Of a DNA stretch of 64,000 nt, positions 48,001 to 64,000 are shown in pieces. A program made the position numbers. The stretch's first letter is position 1. Each line of letters starts with the position of its first letter. The stretch comes from Perna viridis (lineage: Eukaryota), in assembly GCA_037379345.1 (NCBI GenBank), contig CM074520.1, forward strand, positions 9,238,001 to 9,302,000, written 5' to 3'.

Positions 48001-51000
48001 ATTCTCAGAGAAAAACGAAGCGGAGTTACCGTTCGTTAAAAAATGTCCTATTTTTAAAATTCATATAGTTTCTAGCCTTATTAGATTTGTTTGTTTGTTG
48101 GGGTTTAACGTCAGAGCAGCACTATTTCAGCTATATTCAGACGATGAACATGAAATGGATGATAAAATGAACATGAACGGATGATGCAATGAAAAAAAGG
48201 ATTGGACACAAGGATAAAAGGGTCGACAAATTTTGATTGCCACTCGAAAAAGGGGGATGGGTAAGGTCGGGCAATTTAGCCTCCTGTGGCGGAGTGCAAA
48301 GGTTCCTACTCCTATCGAATACCACAGCAGGGTTCTTTAACATGCAAGGAATATGACATCTTTCCTAACACGCTGCACCACTATGGTTTGCGGTCAGGTT
48401 TTCCGTATTATAGCCTGATAACTCCAGCATATAACATGCCAGGGGTACCCCATTCCACCACCTGGGGCACACATCCCAGTTTCTCTGTGGGTAGAGCGCC
48501 TAGCCCCAGGCTAGGTTTCTTAGCACTATTTAGTCGCCTTTTACGACTAGCTTAGCGCTGCTGCACGCCTTGTCAGAGGAGTATATATATGAAAAACTAG
48601 GCATAGTATAAACAGCATTAAATAGCAAGCGGACATGTCAGAGAGCACACATAATAATCAAATCTGGAAACAAAATGATTTAATGATACTTTTAAGATAC
48701 AAAAAAAAATCGAACAAGTATGTAAGAATTGCTATTCTTGAAGTTGAATGCTTTGTGGATGTTTTTTTCTTTTATAGGGGTTTTCATTTTATCGTGAGAT
48801 AAGTGATGTTTTATTTGTTGACTTATTTCATTATAATGTGTAAAATAATGGAGAATGACGTCCCTGTTATATTAGGTATTTGAACTGATGCTAGCTAGAT
48901 ACTTGAGTTTGCTATCCTTAATGTTGATTACAGGAGTTTTCAAATTGATCAATCGTTTGAATGGACAACTAACTAATCATTTTGTTTTGTTACAGTCAAC
49001 TTTATTCTGATGAAGCTATCCAGCTTAATAATGCATTACAGGATATAGTTCATGGGCTGGGAGGCTCCACCGTGCTACCCCTCCATTCATCAACTTCATG
49101 GTGAATTTAAGGTTCCTTTATACCTCCAATTACCGAATCAATTTGTCGCAAAGAAAATTTCTGAATCTTTTTCAGTATAAGGCTATATTTGTACCCACTG
49201 TGTCAAAAAAGCCAAGGTTGTTGTGATTAAATTGTTCAAGCGTCACAACTTTGCTGGTATAGCATGTGTGAACGAACTTTACCAATTAAGATTTCATCAT
49301 GTAGCCCTCAGCCTTACAATGGCACCATAAACATTGCGGTAACACTACGAATTTTGGGGTAAAACGAAAATAAAATGTACCCCCACCCCGCCAAAATCTC
49401 GCTTAAATTAACATATTTTTCAATGTTAAAACCCCTAGAGTATGTATGTTTCAGTAATACTTATTTAGTATTTTCTGTTTATTGTTATCACAATTTATGA
49501 GTCGTGGGTTCCTTTGATGAATTTCGGCGATTTTCGTAGTCAGAATTTATCAAAAGTACAAAAAATGGATTTTCCGTAAAAAGTCACATAAATTAGACTC
49601 TACAAGTTATTGCTCAGCTAAAACATTCTAAAATTGGTATCATTCGATAGATAATTTAGTTTTCAAAGTAGTCAAGCATTACCTTTACCGTAAAAAATCG
49701 CTTTATGAATCAATAAACATTCACATTTTTTCAACCGATACGAGGAACTTAGATACAGATAAACTTGTAAACGATTAATACGTACGAGTATCGAACACTC
49801 TATACTTATGTCAATATTCTTCACAAAGAACTGAAAGCTCAATACTCACCCAATAAGTCGACTAAACTGTTTAATAGGTTTATCCGTAAGGGATAAAATT
49901 ACGATAATGTCCAACCATTAAAGATAGCCTTTTTTGAACTATGGAATTGGTATTAACATTGACTCACTCAAAGGGTCGCGACATAAAAACGAACACAATA
50001 CATTTACAGTTCTCTTCATGATATGGGTTTTGTCCGTATTGTAGGACTTACGATGTACCGTGGTTCTCAACCCTGCATGGGAAGAATTAGGATTGATCCT
50101 AAATCCAATAATGTAGGTTTAAACTAGCCTAACTGACGCTTGAATGTCAGTTATCTGCTAGTATTCCTTTGTTTGTGCATCTGTGTAATGCAAAATCAAG
50201 GGACCCAGACCTTTTCAACTGATTTTATGTATGTTTACTTATGTAATATTTTTATCACAGTAACGAGTTTTTGAAAGACAGGTTTGTGATCACACCAAAC
50301 TACTTTAACCCCGCTGCATTTGGTGCGCCTATTTCAAGTCAGGAATTTTTGGTCTCTGTATTGTTTCGTGTTCACTTTCAATTTAGTTTATGTTGCTGGA
50401 GTATATAGAGGCAAATATTTCACTGCGCCTGTGGAAAATGTTGTTTCTTGGCCATCTGCACCCGCCAAATGGCAGCAATTCCTCGTCGTTCATTGAAGAC
50501 CTTTGGTGGCCTTGAGAAGATGTTTTTCATCACGGTGGGTTTGATGTTTTTTGGGCATATTCACAATATATACATTCTTCTTATATTTTAACTGAAAGTG
50601 CATTCATCGATTAAATAATCATAATTAATTATTGATACAGGACAATAACAAACTTTGCTAAATGTCTAGCTATTGTCAGATGTATACCATCAATGCCAGA
50701 ATTACTTTATGTTTCAATTGAACTTCATTTTGGTTATGCAAAAATGCTAAATTATTTACAGTAAACTATACTTTTGTATCCCCGTTTAAATTTGATTGCC
50801 ACTCTCGTATGACCTTTTTGGTTTGTTTACGTACAATATTAAATCTAACTTTCGTTTCAAGTAGGAAGTAAAATAGATCGAATGTGAAGAACATGGATAA
50901 TTGTGACATTTGCGATTCGGAGTCGGATTTCAAATGCTGTGATCATTGTAAATGTAAATGTTGTGAACAATGTTTTCCTCAACATCAAAATAATGGTGCA

Positions 51001-61000: not shown

Positions 61001-64000
61001 TGTTTGTTTTTAACTTTTGTGATGCTTCGCTAGAAGTGCATAGACAAGATAAATGATAATCATCAATTGTCCACCATGATTAATTGGGAACCTCAAACTT
61101 CCGTGAAGTCTTAGGTGATCAAACATGACATGTTTGTATTAATAATAAACAGTAAATGCCACTAACTGAATATTGTTTCTTCATGGATTTTGTTTTTATT
61201 TACTATGTAAAGCATGGAACAAAAAGAAAAAGATATGTTAAACATGCAACAAAGATATGAAGCAGATGTTGAACAGAAAAACTCGGAAATTACTTATCTG
61301 AATCAGCAACTAGCTGAAATCTCAAAAAGGTATCTTTTAAATTACAATATCTTTTGATTTACTAGCACAAGAGAAATATGAAATTCCTCGTGAGCAGAAT
61401 AAATCATTACTTCCCTAGCTAAGTAAAGTTTTGTTTATAACTTGTATTACCCTTTCTCTTTGGATAAGTAATTATATTTTGAACACCACTTGTAATAGTA
61501 AAACAATGGGTAGTACATTTTAACTTTACTAAAGTCATACATAGATTTACATATAATAAATAAGAAGAAGTTACGCTTATTCACAAGTTTTTATCAAATC
61601 ATGTCTATACTCACATTTATATTTTGTTAACTTCGTTGTAAAAGAATGGCCATTTTGTTTATTAATGTTGTGATGAAGCTTAGAAAATCACTCCTAATTT
61701 ACTGAGTCTTCATTTTCGATTACCTTTCTTTTTTCAATTCAGTTTTTTTTTTCAATAGTCGTATTTATACTGTATATACTGTATATAGTAGAATAATATT
61801 TGTCTTTATTTACTGAAAATTTTAATAAATGTTAAAAAGATTGAAATGTCAATCAATAGTACACTACCTACTATGTAACACTTCCGATAAGAGTCATACA
61901 AAATGTGACGTGAAAAAGTAACCAAAGGAACCAAGTTATACTCGTAATCAAACGAATGTAATCCAGGGACAAAGACCACACATGGAAAACAGACATAGAC
62001 AACAAAGAACATTGAGTAACTAAAATCATACATACACAGTAACAAAAGCAAAAGAGCAACTCGATTTTGGTTATAAATCCTACATATTTGTATCTTCTTT
62101 GCATTATTTAATGTTTAATCATCAAGACTTATAAACAACTTAAATACAAAAATAAAAATGTATATCCTTGTACCGGATACGTAACATATTACGAAATTTG
62201 AATGATTCTTACAAAAGCTGCTACTTACAATGTAACTATATATCGATTAGTTCAAAGAATTAATTTTCTACTTAGATGTATAATCTTTCATTTGCAATCA
62301 ACTTGATGCAATTAAAAATATGATAATGCAAAACGTATGGAAAGTATTATTGCATTTATTGTTGCATATTTCATTCAATGTTGACATAAAAAATAGTAAA
62401 TCATTAATATTCATTTCATAATTTCCCGACACAACTAATTCGGTTACTAAGAACATAACAATCTGGGGTTTCCAACCTTTATACTTGCTTCGATGCATTG
62501 AATGACGAACTTATTTGAAATAACTTTTAAGGGAAAAAATTGCTAATACGATGCTGACAACGGTTAATTCCGAATTGTCGTCAAGATGTAACCAAGTTTC
62601 TGAGATGGAGAACCATATAAGATTATTAAAATCAGAGAAAGACAATTTACAAACAAGGTAAGCAAGACTGTACCTGTTATAAAAATCCGTGGTAGATTTA
62701 TAGTTCCTTGTGCCTCTTGATTCATTCATACATACAAAAAAGGCCTACAAAGTCGATTTAAAACCGATCTGTTTAAATATGTTAATACATTATATTTTGA
62801 CACTATCAACAGTATTTGTGTTTGTTTGTTCAGTTTGAAATCATGATATCTGGGCATAGTGAAAGGTTTAGAAACAATATTTAGCGAATTTATCACAAAA
62901 AAAACTTAATTTAAAAAAAAGATAATAACAGAATTTTAAGATATTATAAAAAAAAAGTCTTTTGCAGTAAATGGACGTTAATTGATCGAAATAACACATG
63001 TATGGTATAAACGACCACAAGGTGTAATATGTCCGATGATGTGTTTTCCATTACCTGTTGCACGAATGAACCCTACGTAGACATTGATTAAGCAATCTAA
63101 CTGTCTAGTCAATCCCACTTTTCCCTTTGATACCTTTTGAAATATATCCGGCGTATAAATTCATAAATTTATAAAGTCGAATTTCCTATTTGAAAGCTAG
63201 AATAATTTCATCACTCAAATAAAACAATCGCTTAATTTGTTTACGTAAAGTTTGAATTTTTTTTGTGAATTGTATATTAGAGAGTCGAACATTTTGCTTG
63301 TGTTTTTAGGGCGTTCATTTTCTCTTCAGACTGTCAATTTTGTCTATTTAAATATTTTCATTTTAATTCTTCATTTAAAGCATATTTATTATTTTAGACT
63401 GAGTTGCTTTGCTGGAGATACGTTGACAAAGGGTAATCCAGCTATTACTGACCTATCTGATCCCAATAGACCCATGAAGATTGGTGAGCGATATGGGGAG
63501 CTCTACGATAATGATTGGACCGATGCTATGGAAAAAGTTGAAACAATAAAACAAAACTTTCCCGACAAAGATGGCTCAGAAATCGAAGAAATTTTGATTA
63601 AATACCTTCATAGGATATTAAAAGTAAGTGTTTTTTCCGGGATCATTATTTGAATACAATTAAATATAAACGTCTATAAATGACATTTAATACAAAACTA
63701 CGTAGTAAAGCCATGTAAATTTTAAACATTTTCTCTATTGCAAAATCAAGGGATAAAATACCCCCCCCCCCACACACACACACACACACACACACAGCAA
63801 TTAAGTTCAGTACAAATTGATTTCATGATATATGCAATGTACGAGAGTACAGCAACGTAATATTAAATTTGCTTAAATGAGGATAATTTCTGCACATACA
63901 TGTAAGAATAAAACTACTGGTATATTTATGTTTTTTTTTAACATGACATTCCTAAGTATAGACTACGAATATAATCATGGTAATCATGTTTTGAAATGCA

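What the first reader, a model, noticed from the sequence alone, without database searches (positions are those of the whole stretch)
50893..63623. RING-less TRIM-like N-terminus fused to a Mieap-like C-terminal region
Seen: two divergent B-box-like zinc fingers, ~310 aa of coiled coil, then the NPAITDLSDPNRP..GE.Y.ELYDNDWTDA motif, all joined in frame. Established: B-box/coiled-coil modules normally end in SPRY, NHL, FN3 and similar domains, and Mieap (SPATA18) acts in mitochondrial quality control and has no B-box. Inference: exon shuffling (a single large B-box exon joined at a phase-2 junction) created a lineage-specific architecture possibly linking innate-immune scaffolding to mitochondria.
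Basis: partly seen in the sequence, partly recalled or inferred. Interest (0 to 1): 0.65.

Follow-up and report, generated by a model that had tools for sequence, protein, structure and literature searches.

The report
Mussel B-box/coiled-coil/Mieap-domain gene
This is one more copy of a mussel gene family that joins a RING-less TRIM-type zinc-finger and coiled-coil head to a Mieap-type tail; the same layout is already annotated in many Mytilus proteins, so it is real but fairly ordinary.

Summary
Exon 1 (50893-51500) encodes two B-box fingers plus a TRIM-type coiled coil. Exon 11 (63398-63623) carries the NPAITDLSDPNRP...ELYDNDWTDA motif, which starts the Pfam MIEAP domain. The rest of that domain lies beyond 64000.

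The layout is not new. The last exon matches 35 named Mytilus proteins at 55-72% identity. A profile of 13 of them aligns to exon 1 at 98.5% probability. In my Pfam scans, 14 Mytilus proteins show both B-box and MIEAP at E<=0.01. The family N-terminus matches the TRIM28 B-box1/B-box2/coiled-coil structure at E 2e-15 to 6e-20. There is no RING.

In my limited sample the B-box module occurs only in one Mytilus clade and in 0 of 9 scallop, oyster or clam relatives. The coiled coil grew by exon duplication: five copies of a 117-nt exon, two of them from a recent 1.37-kb tandem duplication.

Internal exons and the exon 1 join have no transcript evidence. Function, proposed as a self-assembling scaffold carrying a lipid-binding Mieap domain, is inferred.

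Side finding: intact MIEAP-domain genes in two Candidatus Endonucleobacter genomes.

The parts
50893..51500 (+). Exon 1 (608 nt, ends in phase 2): start codon, B-box1, B-box2 and a TRIM-type coiled-coil segment with the family 'FLxxW' motif.
   Evidence: ORF and donor G|GTAAGT. hhalign to the 13-protein Mytilus family profile: 98.5%, E 1.8e-15, profile columns 4-202. Family HMM E 1e-15.
50902..51003 (+). B-box1-like finger (residues 4-37: C4, C7, C16, C19, C24, C27, H31, C37).
   Evidence: Ligand columns at least 90% conserved in A2. The family profile aligns here to B-box1 of TRIM28 and MID1.
51037..51141 (+). B-box2 finger (residues 49-83: C49/C53, H54, C65, C68, C73, C76, H80, H83). The first ligand is displaced (Met51 where the family has Cys).
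   Evidence: Pfam zf-B_box residues 52-86, E 0.0028, below cut-off. Invariant columns. Weak single-sequence match to the TRIM28 B-box2 structure 2yvr, E 0.1.
54822..54920 (+). Exon 2 (99 nt, phase 2 to 2), charged coiled-coil segment. Model only.
   Evidence: Open frame, acceptor ttattcag|, donor AAG|gtgaaa. 62% charged, no Pro or Gly. Family-HMM E 0.13, not significant.
56366..56473 (+). Exon 3 (108 nt, phase 2 to 2), coiled-coil segment. Model only.
   Evidence: Family-HMM E 0.28.
57223..57339 (+). Exon 4: copy A of the repeated 117-nt exon.
   Evidence: 98% identical to exon 6.
57823..57939 (+). Exon 5: copy B of the repeated 117-nt exon.
   Evidence: 98% identical to exon 7.
58595..58711 (+). 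Exon 6: copy A' of the repeated exon, from the recent tandem duplication.
59202..59318 (+). Exon 7: copy B' of the repeated exon, from the recent tandem duplication.
59993..60133 (+). Exon 8 (141 nt, phase 2 to 2), coiled-coil segment. Model only.
   Evidence: Best of the non-significant family-HMM matches, E 0.021.
61213..61329 (+). Exon 9: copy C of the repeated 117-nt exon.
   Evidence: 76-83% nt identity to copies A and B.
62532..62657 (+). Exon 10 (126 nt): last coiled-coil exon, ending ...EKDNLQT plus 2 bases of the split Arg codon.
   Evidence: hhalign ends at family profile column 541. Family HMM E 2.2e-5, positions 499-536. 2 tblastn HSPs.
63398..63623 (+). Exon 11 (226 nt, ends in phase 0): LSCFAGDTLTKGNPAITDLSDPNRPMKIGERYGELYDNDWTDAME..., the conserved lead-in and first ~50 positions of the MIEAP domain. 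The rest of the gene is beyond 64000.
   Evidence: 37 database hits, best E 2e-27 at 69-72% identity. hhalign 100%, E 1.2e-41, starting at profile column 543, one column after exon 10 ends. Pfam MIEAP positions 2-30, E 0.06 only.
56595..59614 (+). Tandem segmental duplication, period about 1,365-1,380 bp and about 2.2 copies. It carries exons 4+5 and 6+7 together with an intronic dispersed repeat.
   Evidence: the repeat finder D3-D6, 93-99% identity. Self-blastn 56595-58234 vs 57960-59614, 95.1% over 1658 bp.

Best explanation
The locus is the 5' three-quarters or so of a single protein-coding gene of a mussel (Mytilidae-like genome). It belongs to a gene family already annotated in Mytilus species.

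The family layout is an N-terminal RING-less TRIM-type module (B-box1, B-box2, short coiled coil), a long coiled-coil spacer of variable length, and a C-terminal MIEAP (Mieap/SPATA18-type) domain.

Shown:
- Homology of exon 1, exon 10 and exon 11 to that family, in the same order.
- Absence of a RING.
- Splice-phase compatibility of all modelled exons.
- Growth of the spacer by duplication of a 117-nt phase-2/2 exon (five copies, two from a recent 1.37-kb tandem duplication).

Inferred, from TRIM structures and from work on mammalian Mieap:
- The B-box/coiled-coil head makes antiparallel dimers and possibly higher-order assemblies, without any E3 ligase activity of its own.
- The exon-repeat coil acts as a rod-like spacer.
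- The MIEAP domain supplies the hydrophobic, cardiolipin or phospholipid-binding end that puts canonical Mieap into mitochondrial condensates.

The protein would thus be a self-assembling scaffold that places MIEAP domains on a target membrane. It most likely arose from a single fusion in the mytilid lineage, followed by family expansion.
For: Family membership:
- exon 11 hits 37 proteins at E<=1e-3. Of these, 35 are named Mytilus, 1 is unnamed and 1 is a bacterial MAG. 32 carry precomputed PF16026.
- P0012, P0015 and P0025 hit both exon 1 and exon 11.
- exon 1 vs the family profile, 98.5%, E 1.8e-15.
- exon 10 ends at profile column 541 and exon 11 starts at 543, which leaves exactly the split Arg codon between them.
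- of 301 + strand ORFs in 50801-64000, only E1, E10 and E11 are significant against the family HMM. The eight modelled coil exons E2-E9 are the eight best of the rest.
- of 20 proteins scanned (19 Mytilus, 1 Endonucleobacter), 14 Mytilus proteins show both zf-B_box and MIEAP at E<=0.01.

TRIM-type head:
- family profiles with the window row (E 5.5e-20) and without it (E 1.9e-15) match the TRIM28 B1-B2-CC structure 6h3a, then TRIM25, TRIM3, TRIM72, TRIM5 and MID1.
- no RING-pattern ORF upstream (0 of 138).

Exon repeats:
- 5 of 5 copies of the 117-nt exon keep their length, AG, GT and open frame.

Phylogeny:
- all rows with the N-terminal module lie in one 40-row Mytilus clade (support 100/99). 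0 of 9 other bivalves carry it.
- the window's 64-aa piece attaches at the base of that clade (SH-aLRT 91).

Literature:
- PMC10845071 (passages): Mieap has two coiled coils in a hydrophilic N-half and a hydrophobic C-half needed for mitochondrial, cardiolipin-linked condensates.
- PMC4864278 (passages): TRIM coiled coils form antiparallel dimers, and B-boxes can drive higher-order assembly.
- PMC8382680 (passages): the Mieap orthogroup has 53.1 genes per bivalve vs 0.6 in other taxa.
Against: - No transcript evidence for any junction. The 3.3-kb E1-E2 intron join rests on phase, order and family architecture only.
- E2-E9 have no significant homology. 9.2% of 39-codon windows in this AT-rich stretch are stop-free anyway.
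- dN/dS among old exon copies is mixed: 0.27-0.43 for four comparisons of copy types and 1.1-1.2 for A vs C, on 38 codons.
- Exon 1 alone is a weak searcher. The word-indexed search found nothing, there was one hit at E 5.6e-4 in 1.84 billion representatives, and the Pfam B-box match is below cut-off.
- Three quarters of the MIEAP domain is outside the window. Pfam does not call the domain from the window's exon alone.
- Short MIEAP-only Mytilus models exist (231-279 aa). A downstream promoter is therefore possible.
- The 95-99% identical duplicate block could be an assembly artefact.
- No functional datum exists for any B-box/MIEAP protein. Cardiolipin binding is known only for mammalian Mieap.
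Confidence: 0.8

Rival explanations
1. There are two transcription units. One is a short B-box-only gene (exon 1, perhaps with a few coil exons). The other is a separate coiled-coil/MIEAP gene with its own promoter further downstream. The full-length fusion would then not be made from this locus.
For: - Short MIEAP-only Mytilus proteins of 231-279 aa start about 28 residues before the exon-11 equivalent. One of them, P0010, also touches exon 10.
- A 115-aa B-box-only protein, P0038, is the single best database match of exon 1.
- Read without splicing, exon 1 ends at a TAA that overlaps the donor.
Against: - 23 of 40 proteins of the relevant Mytilus clade carry both ends in one chain. These include RefSeq XP models.
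- Exon 1 aligns to the N-terminus of exactly those proteins.
- All phases fit.
- No other gene-like match lies between the two ends.
- Many of the short database proteins may be fragmentary models.
Confidence: 0.1
2. The gene is real, but part of the modelled spacer is not. The near-identical block with exons 6+7 may be an assembly or haplotype artefact. Some coil exons may be skipped, mutually exclusive or dead, so the protein would be shorter than modelled.
For: - The block is 95.1% identical over 1658 bp, and 98-99% around the exons.
- All coil exons are phase 2/2, so any subset stays in frame.
- 0 of 25 Mytilus paralogues show internal repeats at E<=1e-4, so this repetitiveness is unusual in the family.
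Against: - The two copies differ at scattered positions, including 2 replacement changes per exon pair. That argues against a simple collapse or duplication error.
- All five copies keep their splice sites and frame.
- The spacer length implied, with MIEAP starting near residue 581, is inside the family range of 293-839.
Confidence: 0.2
3. The fusion is an innate-immune TRIM-like scaffold rewired to mitochondria, a functional link between immune signalling and mitochondrial quality control.
For: - The TRIM-type module is genuine.
- Mieap acts at mitochondria in mammals (PMC10845071, passages).
- The Mieap family is strongly expanded in bivalves (PMC8382680, passages).
- MIEAP-domain transcripts are over-represented in mussel gills (PMC5549309, passages).
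Against: - Nothing in the sequence indicates immune function.
- There is no RING, so no ligase signalling.
- TRIM-type modules serve many non-immune roles; the closest structural matches are TRIM28 and the TIF1 proteins.
- No expression or localisation data exist for these proteins.
- No paper found treats this architecture.
Confidence: 0.12

Closest known systems
Annotated Mytilus B-box/coiled-coil/MIEAP proteins. Examples: CAG2254448.1 (M. edulis, UniRef 'B box-type domain-containing protein'), CAC5392359.1 (M. coruscus, 'Mitochondria-eating protein'), XP_052093049.1 (M. californianus), VDI28449.1 (M. galloprovincialis, named TRIM66).
   Same: - Same order of parts: B-box1, B-box2, a coil with the FLxxW motif, a long coiled coil, then EKDxLQTRLSSxAGEKLTKGNPxITDLxDPNRPMKIGExYGELYDNEWTDAM and the MIEAP domain.
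- No RING.
   Different: - Only 19-28% identity over exon 1 and 55-72% over exon 11 among the named Mytilus hits. The window's piece sits outside the 40-row Mytilus clade, so it is probably another genus or an old paralogue.
- First B-box2 ligand displaced.
- The spacer is built from five copies of one exon, whereas 0 of 25 paralogues show internal repeats.
Canonical Mieap / SPATA18 (Pfam PF16026).
   Same: - Coiled-coil N-half followed by the MIEAP C-terminal region.
- The window's motif aligns to MIEAP profile positions 2-30.
- Full domains in the relatives.
   Different: - Canonical Mieap has no B-boxes (PMC10845071, passages on domain structure).
- It is one of about 0.6 genes per non-bivalve genome, against about 53 per bivalve (PMC8382680).
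- Function (p53 target, cardiolipin condensates) is shown only in mammals.
TRIM family, closest to TRIM28/TIF1-type B1-B2-CC. RING-less TRIM-like proteins also exist in vertebrates (that they exist is recalled, not tested here).
   Same: - Tandem B-box1 and B-box2 followed directly by a coiled coil.
- Profile match to 6h3a at E 5.5e-20 over profile positions 5-242, then TRIM25, TRIM3, TRIM72, TRIM5 and MID1.
- Three paralogues (P0046, P0047, P0050) also hit Pfam ANCHR-like_BBOX; P0046 and P0047 also have weak TRIM_CC matches.
   Different: - No RING, so it is not an E3 ligase by itself.
- The C-terminal domain is MIEAP, not PRY-SPRY, NHL, PHD-bromo, FN3 or the like.
- About 350 extra residues of coiled coil lie between the TRIM-type coil and the C-terminal domain.
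MIEAP-domain proteins of Candidatus Endonucleobacter, intranuclear parasites of deep-sea mussels (L001 8001-9308; L002 1807-4860, 5605-7650, 7998-9305).
   Same: - Share the N.P.ITDLSDPNRP...YDN.WTDAME motif and the C-terminal ...VVWP...GPLL.KG.VQ block.
- hhalign to the mussel family: 99.8%, E 7e-30.
   Different: - Bacterial, intron-less single ORFs in bacterial gene context (PriA, asparaginase, GH18, transposase).
- No B-box module, 0 of 4.
- Domain about 170 aa, lacking the variable middle.
- One, two or four domain copies per protein.

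Membership tests
TRIM (tripartite motif / RBCC) family | N-terminal RING (C3HC4) domain | tested here: not met
   - The ORF opens at ATG 50893 directly into B-box1, with an in-frame stop upstream.
- 0 of 138 + strand ORFs of at least 25 aa in 40000-50892 fit a RING pattern. The regex was recalled from memory.
- Family proteins start at the same position.
TRIM (tripartite motif / RBCC) family | One or two B-box zinc fingers (B-box1 N-terminal to B-box2) | tested here: met
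   - Ligand columns conserved.
- Family profile matches B1+B2 of TRIM28, MID1 and TRIM25.
- The window alone is sub-threshold in Pfam, 18.2 vs 24.1 bits.
TRIM (tripartite motif / RBCC) family | Coiled coil directly after B-box2 that forms an antiparallel dimer | tested here: inconclusive
   - The sequence-profile match runs through the TRIM28 coiled coil, profile positions 5-242.
- Exon 1 aligns to family columns up to 202.
- Dimerisation itself is untested. The complex job was never accepted because the queue was full.
Mieap / SPATA18 family (Pfam PF16026 MIEAP) | Complete C-terminal MIEAP domain (195 profile positions) | tested here: inconclusive
   - Only about the first 50 positions lie before 64000.
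- Pfam E 0.06 on a 61-aa piece and no hit on the 75-aa exon.
- The exon is 55-72% identical to named Mytilus proteins whose full MIEAP domain scores 52-71 bits.
Mieap / SPATA18 family (Pfam PF16026 MIEAP) | Coiled-coil-rich hydrophilic N-terminal half | tested here: met
   Nine modelled exons, 353 aa, no Pro, 27-62% charged. This is a model only, with no transcript.
Mieap / SPATA18 family (Pfam PF16026 MIEAP) | Cardiolipin binding, mitochondrial condensates, p53 inducibility | not testable with these tools
   Known from mammalian Mieap only (PMC10845071, passages).
Mytilus B-box/coiled-coil/MIEAP subfamily (database-annotated, unnamed) | N-terminal B1-B2-coil module with the FLxxW motif, homologous to the family's | tested here: met
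   hhalign 98.5%, E 1.8e-15. Family HMM E 1e-15. BLASTP to the TRIM66-named member, E 5e-5.
Mytilus B-box/coiled-coil/MIEAP subfamily (database-annotated, unnamed) | The EKDxLQTR|LSSxAGExLTKGNPxITDLxDPNRPMKIGExYGELYDNEWTDAM junction block leading into MIEAP | tested here: met
   Exon 10 and exon 11 abut on the profile (columns 541 and 543).
Mytilus B-box/coiled-coil/MIEAP subfamily (database-annotated, unnamed) | Both ends in one transcript | not testable with these tools
   No transcript or read data. The joined protein was deliberately not assembled.

The most novel reading that the evidence does not exclude
The B-box/coiled-coil/MIEAP proteins are a mytilid invention: one fusion followed by expansion. 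A self-assembling TRIM-type lattice presents many MIEAP lipid-binding domains.

Cardiolipin marks both damaged mitochondria and bacterial membranes. The family could therefore act as an organelle-damage or intracellular-bacterium sensor and scaffold, not as a housekeeping Mieap.

The intranuclear mussel parasite Candidatus Endonucleobacter would then have captured the host MIEAP domain as an intron-less gene, multiplied to up to four domains per protein, to mimic or jam that system. This would be a second host-derived gene family beside its published apoptosis inhibitors.
Probability: 0.12. Interest if true: 0.75.

Novelty: new member of a known kind. Interest (0 to 1): 0.33.

Why it matters
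For the window itself, the result is mainly annotation. It gives a confident family assignment, an exon model and a clear example of a coiled-coil spacer growing by duplication of a symmetric (phase 2/2) exon.

More broadly, bivalves carry dozens of Mieap-like genes of unknown role. One mytilid clade has put a RING-less TRIM head on them. That gives a testable idea of how these proteins assemble, namely TRIM-type dimers or lattices presenting a lipid-binding domain.

Five searches of the held paper library found no paper describing the fusion. It is visible only as automatic annotation in sequence databases.

The by-product may interest specialists more. Related MIEAP-domain genes sit intact in the genomes of an intranuclear mussel parasite already known for taking genes from its host.

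Tried and rejected
Searches that found little or nothing:
- exon 1 in the word-indexed protein search ('longer'). Nothing among 250 candidates.
- exon 1 by phmmer against 1.84 billion representatives. One hit only (P0038, E 5.6e-4).
- exon 1 alone against PDB sequences. Only E 0.1-1 matches to TRIM28 and TRIM25.
- Pfam on the 75-aa exon 11 and on four coil exons. No family at E<=0.1.
- tblastn of 81 proteins against the window at E<=0.05. Nothing on E2-E9 and nothing elsewhere in the window.
- ESM Atlas with P0046. No usable hit.
- Rfam and tRNA scans of the window. Nothing.
- self-BLASTP for internal repeats in 25 Mytilus paralogues. 0 of 25.
- a conservation comparison of bacterial and mussel domains by hmmalign left the bacterial rows mostly gapped. 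It gave no shared column at 90% or more and was uninformative beyond the terminal motifs.

Considered and rejected:
- The repeated ORF 'IKHRRE..QVQTEERTAQHH' (56829, 58199, and a degenerate copy at 59415) was rejected as an exon. It has no acceptor with a pyrimidine tract and no donor leaving 2 bases.

Errors:
- One search failed because a stop codon lay within my coordinates. I dropped that item and re-ran the rest.
- One search used a wrong reading frame for the window's piece and is void. One search is the corrected run.

Tools that did not run:
No fold model or fold search was made.
- The homodimer job for exon 1 was never accepted because the queue was full. It gave no result of any kind.

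Not done or not available:
- The spliced protein was not assembled, so there was no whole-protein Pfam, HHpred or fold run.
- No eukaryotic genome collection was available, so exon structures of the Mytilus relatives and the species of the window stayed unchecked.
The orthogroup lists of PMC8382680 and the gene-transfer tables of PMC11521996 may bear on the claims here.

Full report
**What the window is.** The sequence is AT-rich, 27-36% GC in every 2-kb window. It has short exons between long, repeat-rich introns. Its best protein matches are all to mussels. I take it for a mytilid-like bivalve genome, not human. The only N run (39400-39542) lies outside the finding and was left as it is.

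**The observation.** Exon 1 runs from ATG 50893 to a G|GTAAGT donor after 51500. It is 608 nt, so it ends two bases into a codon. Its translation holds two Cys/His clusters.

I aligned it with 20 Mytilus relatives (A2). These columns are invariant or at least 90% conserved:
- First finger: C4, C7, C16, C19, C24, C27, H31.
- Second finger: H54, C65, C68, C73, C76, H80, H83.

The family's first Cys of the second finger is Met51 here, with C49 and C53 nearby. By itself the exon is a weak query:
- Pfam zf-B_box gives E 0.0028 and 18.2 bits, below the 24.1-bit cut-off.
- The word-indexed search found nothing.
- phmmer against 1.84 billion representatives found one protein, P0038, at E 5.6e-4.
- PDB sequences gave only E 0.1-1 to TRIM28 and TRIM25.

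Profile methods settle the question:
- Exon 1 aligns to a profile of 13 Mytilus proteins (A1) at 98.5% probability and E 1.8e-15. The match covers profile columns 4-202 and includes a shared FLxxW motif near the exon's end.
- That family profile matches the solved TRIM28 B-box1/B-box2/coiled-coil structure 6h3a. E is 1.9e-15 without the window row and 5.5e-20 with it.
- TRIM25, TRIM3, TRIM72, TRIM5 and MID1 follow in both searches.
- Three paralogues (P0046, P0047, P0050) also hit Pfam ANCHR-like_BBOX, and two of them (P0046, P0047) show weak TRIM_CC matches.

The two fingers are therefore B-box1 and B-box2 of a TRIM-type module, and the rest of exon 1 is the TRIM-type coil.

There is no RING:
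- The ORF opens directly into B-box1.
- The relatives start at the same place.
- None of 138 + strand ORFs in the 10.9 kb upstream fits a RING pattern. The pattern was recalled from memory.

**The C-terminal end.** Exon 11 (63398-63623) holds LSCFAGDTLTKGNPAITDLSDPNRPMKIGERYGELYDNDWTDAME... It finds 37 proteins at E<=1e-3, the best at 2e-27 with 69-72% identity. Of these, 35 are named Mytilus proteins, one is unnamed and one comes from a bacterial MAG. 32 of the 37 carry precomputed PF16026 (MIEAP).

In the relatives the Pfam domain starts at the PMKIG of this motif. From the window's own letters, Pfam gives only E 0.06 on a 61-aa piece and nothing on the 75-aa exon. About three quarters of the domain must lie beyond 64000, and no further exon is visible before the window ends.

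**The middle.** Splice-site and phase arithmetic gives nine exons that each take one base and leave two:

| Exon | Coordinates |
|---|---|
| E2 | 54822-54920 |
| E3 | 56366-56473 |
| E4 | 57223-57339 |
| E5 | 57823-57939 |
| E6 | 58595-58711 |
| E7 | 59202-59318 |
| E8 | 59993-60133 |
| E9 | 61213-61329 |
| E10 | 62532-62657 |

Together they make 1059 nt, or 353 aa. Each exon has no proline, at most one glycine and 27-62% charged residues.

Exon 10 is supported by homology. It ends at family profile column 541, and exon 11 begins at column 543. That leaves exactly the Arg codon split by the intron.

Exons 2-9 have no significant match:
- tblastn of 81 proteins at E<=0.05 found none.
- Against the family HMM they score only E 0.02-0.28. 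They are nonetheless the eight best of the 298 non-significant + strand ORFs in 50801-64000.
- A stop-free stretch of 39 codons is not rare here; 9.2% of windows have one.

These exons therefore rest on the phase chain, the splice sites, composition and repeat conservation.

No whole-protein domain scan, profile search or fold was run.

**Exon amplification.** A 117-nt exon (MEQKE..M..MQ..YE.DVEQK.L.I..LKQ.L.ES..) occurs five times. All five copies keep their length, AG acceptor, GT donor and open frame.

Two pairs (E4/E6 and E5/E7) are 98% identical. They belong to a tandem duplication with a period of about 1.37 kb, 95.1% identical over 1658 bp. That duplication also copied an intronic dispersed repeat.

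The older copies are 76-83% identical. Their dN/dS is 0.27-0.43 for the A-versus-B and B-versus-C comparisons and 1.1-1.2 for A versus C, on only 38 codons. This is weak and mixed evidence of constraint.

None of 25 Mytilus paralogues shows internal repeats at E<=1e-4. The amplification is therefore private to this gene, or partly an assembly artefact.

Counting by coordinates, MIEAP would start near residue 581. That is inside the family range of 293-839.

**Is the architecture new?** No.
- I scanned 20 proteins: 19 Mytilus proteins and one Endonucleobacter protein. Fourteen of the Mytilus proteins show both zf-B_box and MIEAP at E<=0.01.
- Eleven of the 57 hits carry both domains in the precomputed annotation.
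Twelve of those 27 were used to build the HMM.
- Deposited examples are CAG2254448.1, CAC5392359.1, XP_052093049.1 and VDI28449.1. The last is named TRIM66 by its source.

I found no paper that describes the combination:
- (Mieap / B-box / bivalve): the one paper holding both words lists them as separate orthogroups.
- 3 papers.
- ('MIEAP domain'): 0 papers.
- nothing relevant.

What is in print:
- The Mieap orthogroup has 807 genes, 53.1 per bivalve against 0.6 elsewhere (PMC8382680, passages).
- The Pfam family is over-represented among gill-enriched transcripts of a mussel (PMC5549309, passages).

**How old is the fusion?** I built a careful maximum-likelihood tree of 78 MIEAP domains (quick version).
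- Every protein with the B-box module falls in one 40-row, all-Mytilus clade (support 100/99).
- 23 of those 40 rows have the module. The other 17 are mostly short models.
- 0 of 9 named scallop, oyster, pearl-oyster or clam relatives has the module, by Pfam at E<=0.05 or by the HMM.
- The other Mytilus MIEAP clades lack it too.
- The window's 64-aa piece attaches at the base of the 40-row clade (SH-aLRT 91, quick tree). With at most 73% identity to any member, this suggests another mytilid genus or an old paralogue.

A single fusion in the mytilid lineage is the simplest reading. The sample was limited by the search tool's word index and by caps, and no Metazoa-wide survey could be run. The single-exon, phase-2 B-box module and the all-phase-2 spacer are compatible with exon shuffling but do not prove it.

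**How it probably works (inferred).**
- TRIM coiled coils form antiparallel dimers, and B-boxes can drive higher-order assembly (PMC4864278, passages).
- Mammalian Mieap has two coiled coils in a hydrophilic N-half. Its hydrophobic C-half is required for its cardiolipin-linked mitochondrial condensates (PMC10845071, passages).

I therefore expect a RING-less protein with no ligase activity. It would dimerise or form lattices through its head, carry a rod-like spacer of evolvable length, and engage a phospholipid surface through MIEAP. The coiled coil before MIEAP is part of the ancestral Mieap layout, so only the B-boxes and the first coil are 'TRIM-derived'. Nothing here speaks for or against an immune role.

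**Rival readings.**
- Two separate transcription units. Short MIEAP-only and B-box-only database proteins exist. Read unspliced, exon 1 ends at a TAA overlapping its donor.
- A shorter real protein, if the near-identical block is an artefact or exons are skipped.

**Side finding.** One hit of exon 11, P0037, is from a MAG of Candidatus Endonucleobacter.
- The gene is an intact 435-codon ORF in two Endonucleobacter genomes, 76% identical to each other.
- It lies among bacterial genes: PriA, asparaginase, a GH18 glycosyl hydrolase, Sel1 and a DDE transposase.
- One of the genomes has two more MIEAP ORFs next to it, with two and four domain copies.
- The homology to the mussel family (99.8%, E 7e-30) runs unbroken across the position of the mussel exon 10/11 intron.
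- The eight bacterial domains form one clade (100/99). That clade groups with 43 Mytilus-only rows against all other bivalve rows (96/80). The tree is unrooted and lacks host (bathymodioline) sequences.
- The paper that reported host-derived apoptosis inhibitors in this parasite does not mention Mieap in its main text (PMC11521996; 0 occurrences).

**Not done.**
- The dimer job was never accepted.
- No eukaryotic genome collection or transcript data were available.

Noticed in passing
L001 8001-9308; L002 1807-4860, 5605-7650, 7998-9305 (outside the window): Intact MIEAP-domain ORFs sit in two Candidatus Endonucleobacter genomes (intranuclear parasites of deep-sea mussels), in bacterial gene context and with 1, 2 or 4 domain copies per protein. 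They are colinear with the mussel family across a host intron position. In the tree they group with a Mytilus-only clade (96/80, unrooted). 'Mieap' does not occur in the main text of PMC11521996.
   Followed up: partly
window 2616-2776, 6241-6400, 14988-15324, 19445-19973, 27801-28335, 30404-30694, 35455-35928, 42021-42171, 43926-44183, 53993-54159, 57354-57520, 58726-58892, 61910-62064: A dispersed repeat of about 150-540 bp, 73-93% identical, in both orientations. Four copies lie in introns of the gene. It overlaps the 3' end of a reverse-transcriptase-like ORF (27023-27997, weak RVT_1, E 0.0097). A conserved peptide (...KRDDFSF.IVNFPF..GNIPSAPAYG...) recurs at 19747-20169 (-), 23550-23993 (+) and, in degraded form, near 53667-53852 (+). 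It is probably a retroelement with SINE-like tails.
   Followed up: partly
window 8217-10583 (-): A 788-aa open frame on the minus strand: a transmembrane segment followed by a long Lys/Glu/Asn/Ser-rich tail. It has only a weak, sub-threshold Cadherin_C_2 match (E 6e-6, 27.3 vs 31.5 bits). It is probably the last large exon of a neighbouring membrane-protein gene.
   Followed up: partly
window 51499-51504: If exon 1 is not spliced, the frame ends at a TAA that overlaps the GTAAGT donor. The product would be a 203-aa B-box-only protein. The best single database match of exon 1 is a 115-aa B-box-only protein, P0038.
   Followed up: no
window 60492-60654; 45564-45927; 47556-47691; 63771-63796; 54996-55020: Tandem repeats: a perfect 78-bp x 2.1 repeat in the intron after exon 8; a 166-bp x 2.2 repeat and a 26-bp x 5 repeat upstream of the gene; (CA)13 just after exon 11; (AT)12 after exon 2.
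   Followed up: no
window 56829-56975, 58199-58345, 59415-59654 (+): A charged open frame (IKHRRE..YEQQVQTEERTAQHH) is repeated with the 1.37-kb unit. It looks coil-like, but it has no phase-compatible splice sites. It may be a dead or alternative exon.
   Followed up: partly
window 39400-39542: A run of 143 N. It was left untouched.
   Followed up: no
P0017 (Mytilus galloprovincialis protein, outside the window): A family member with the B-box head and the start of MIEAP, but ankyrin repeats at its C-terminus in place of the rest of the domain. It is either a chimeric gene model or a further shuffled variant.
   Followed up: no
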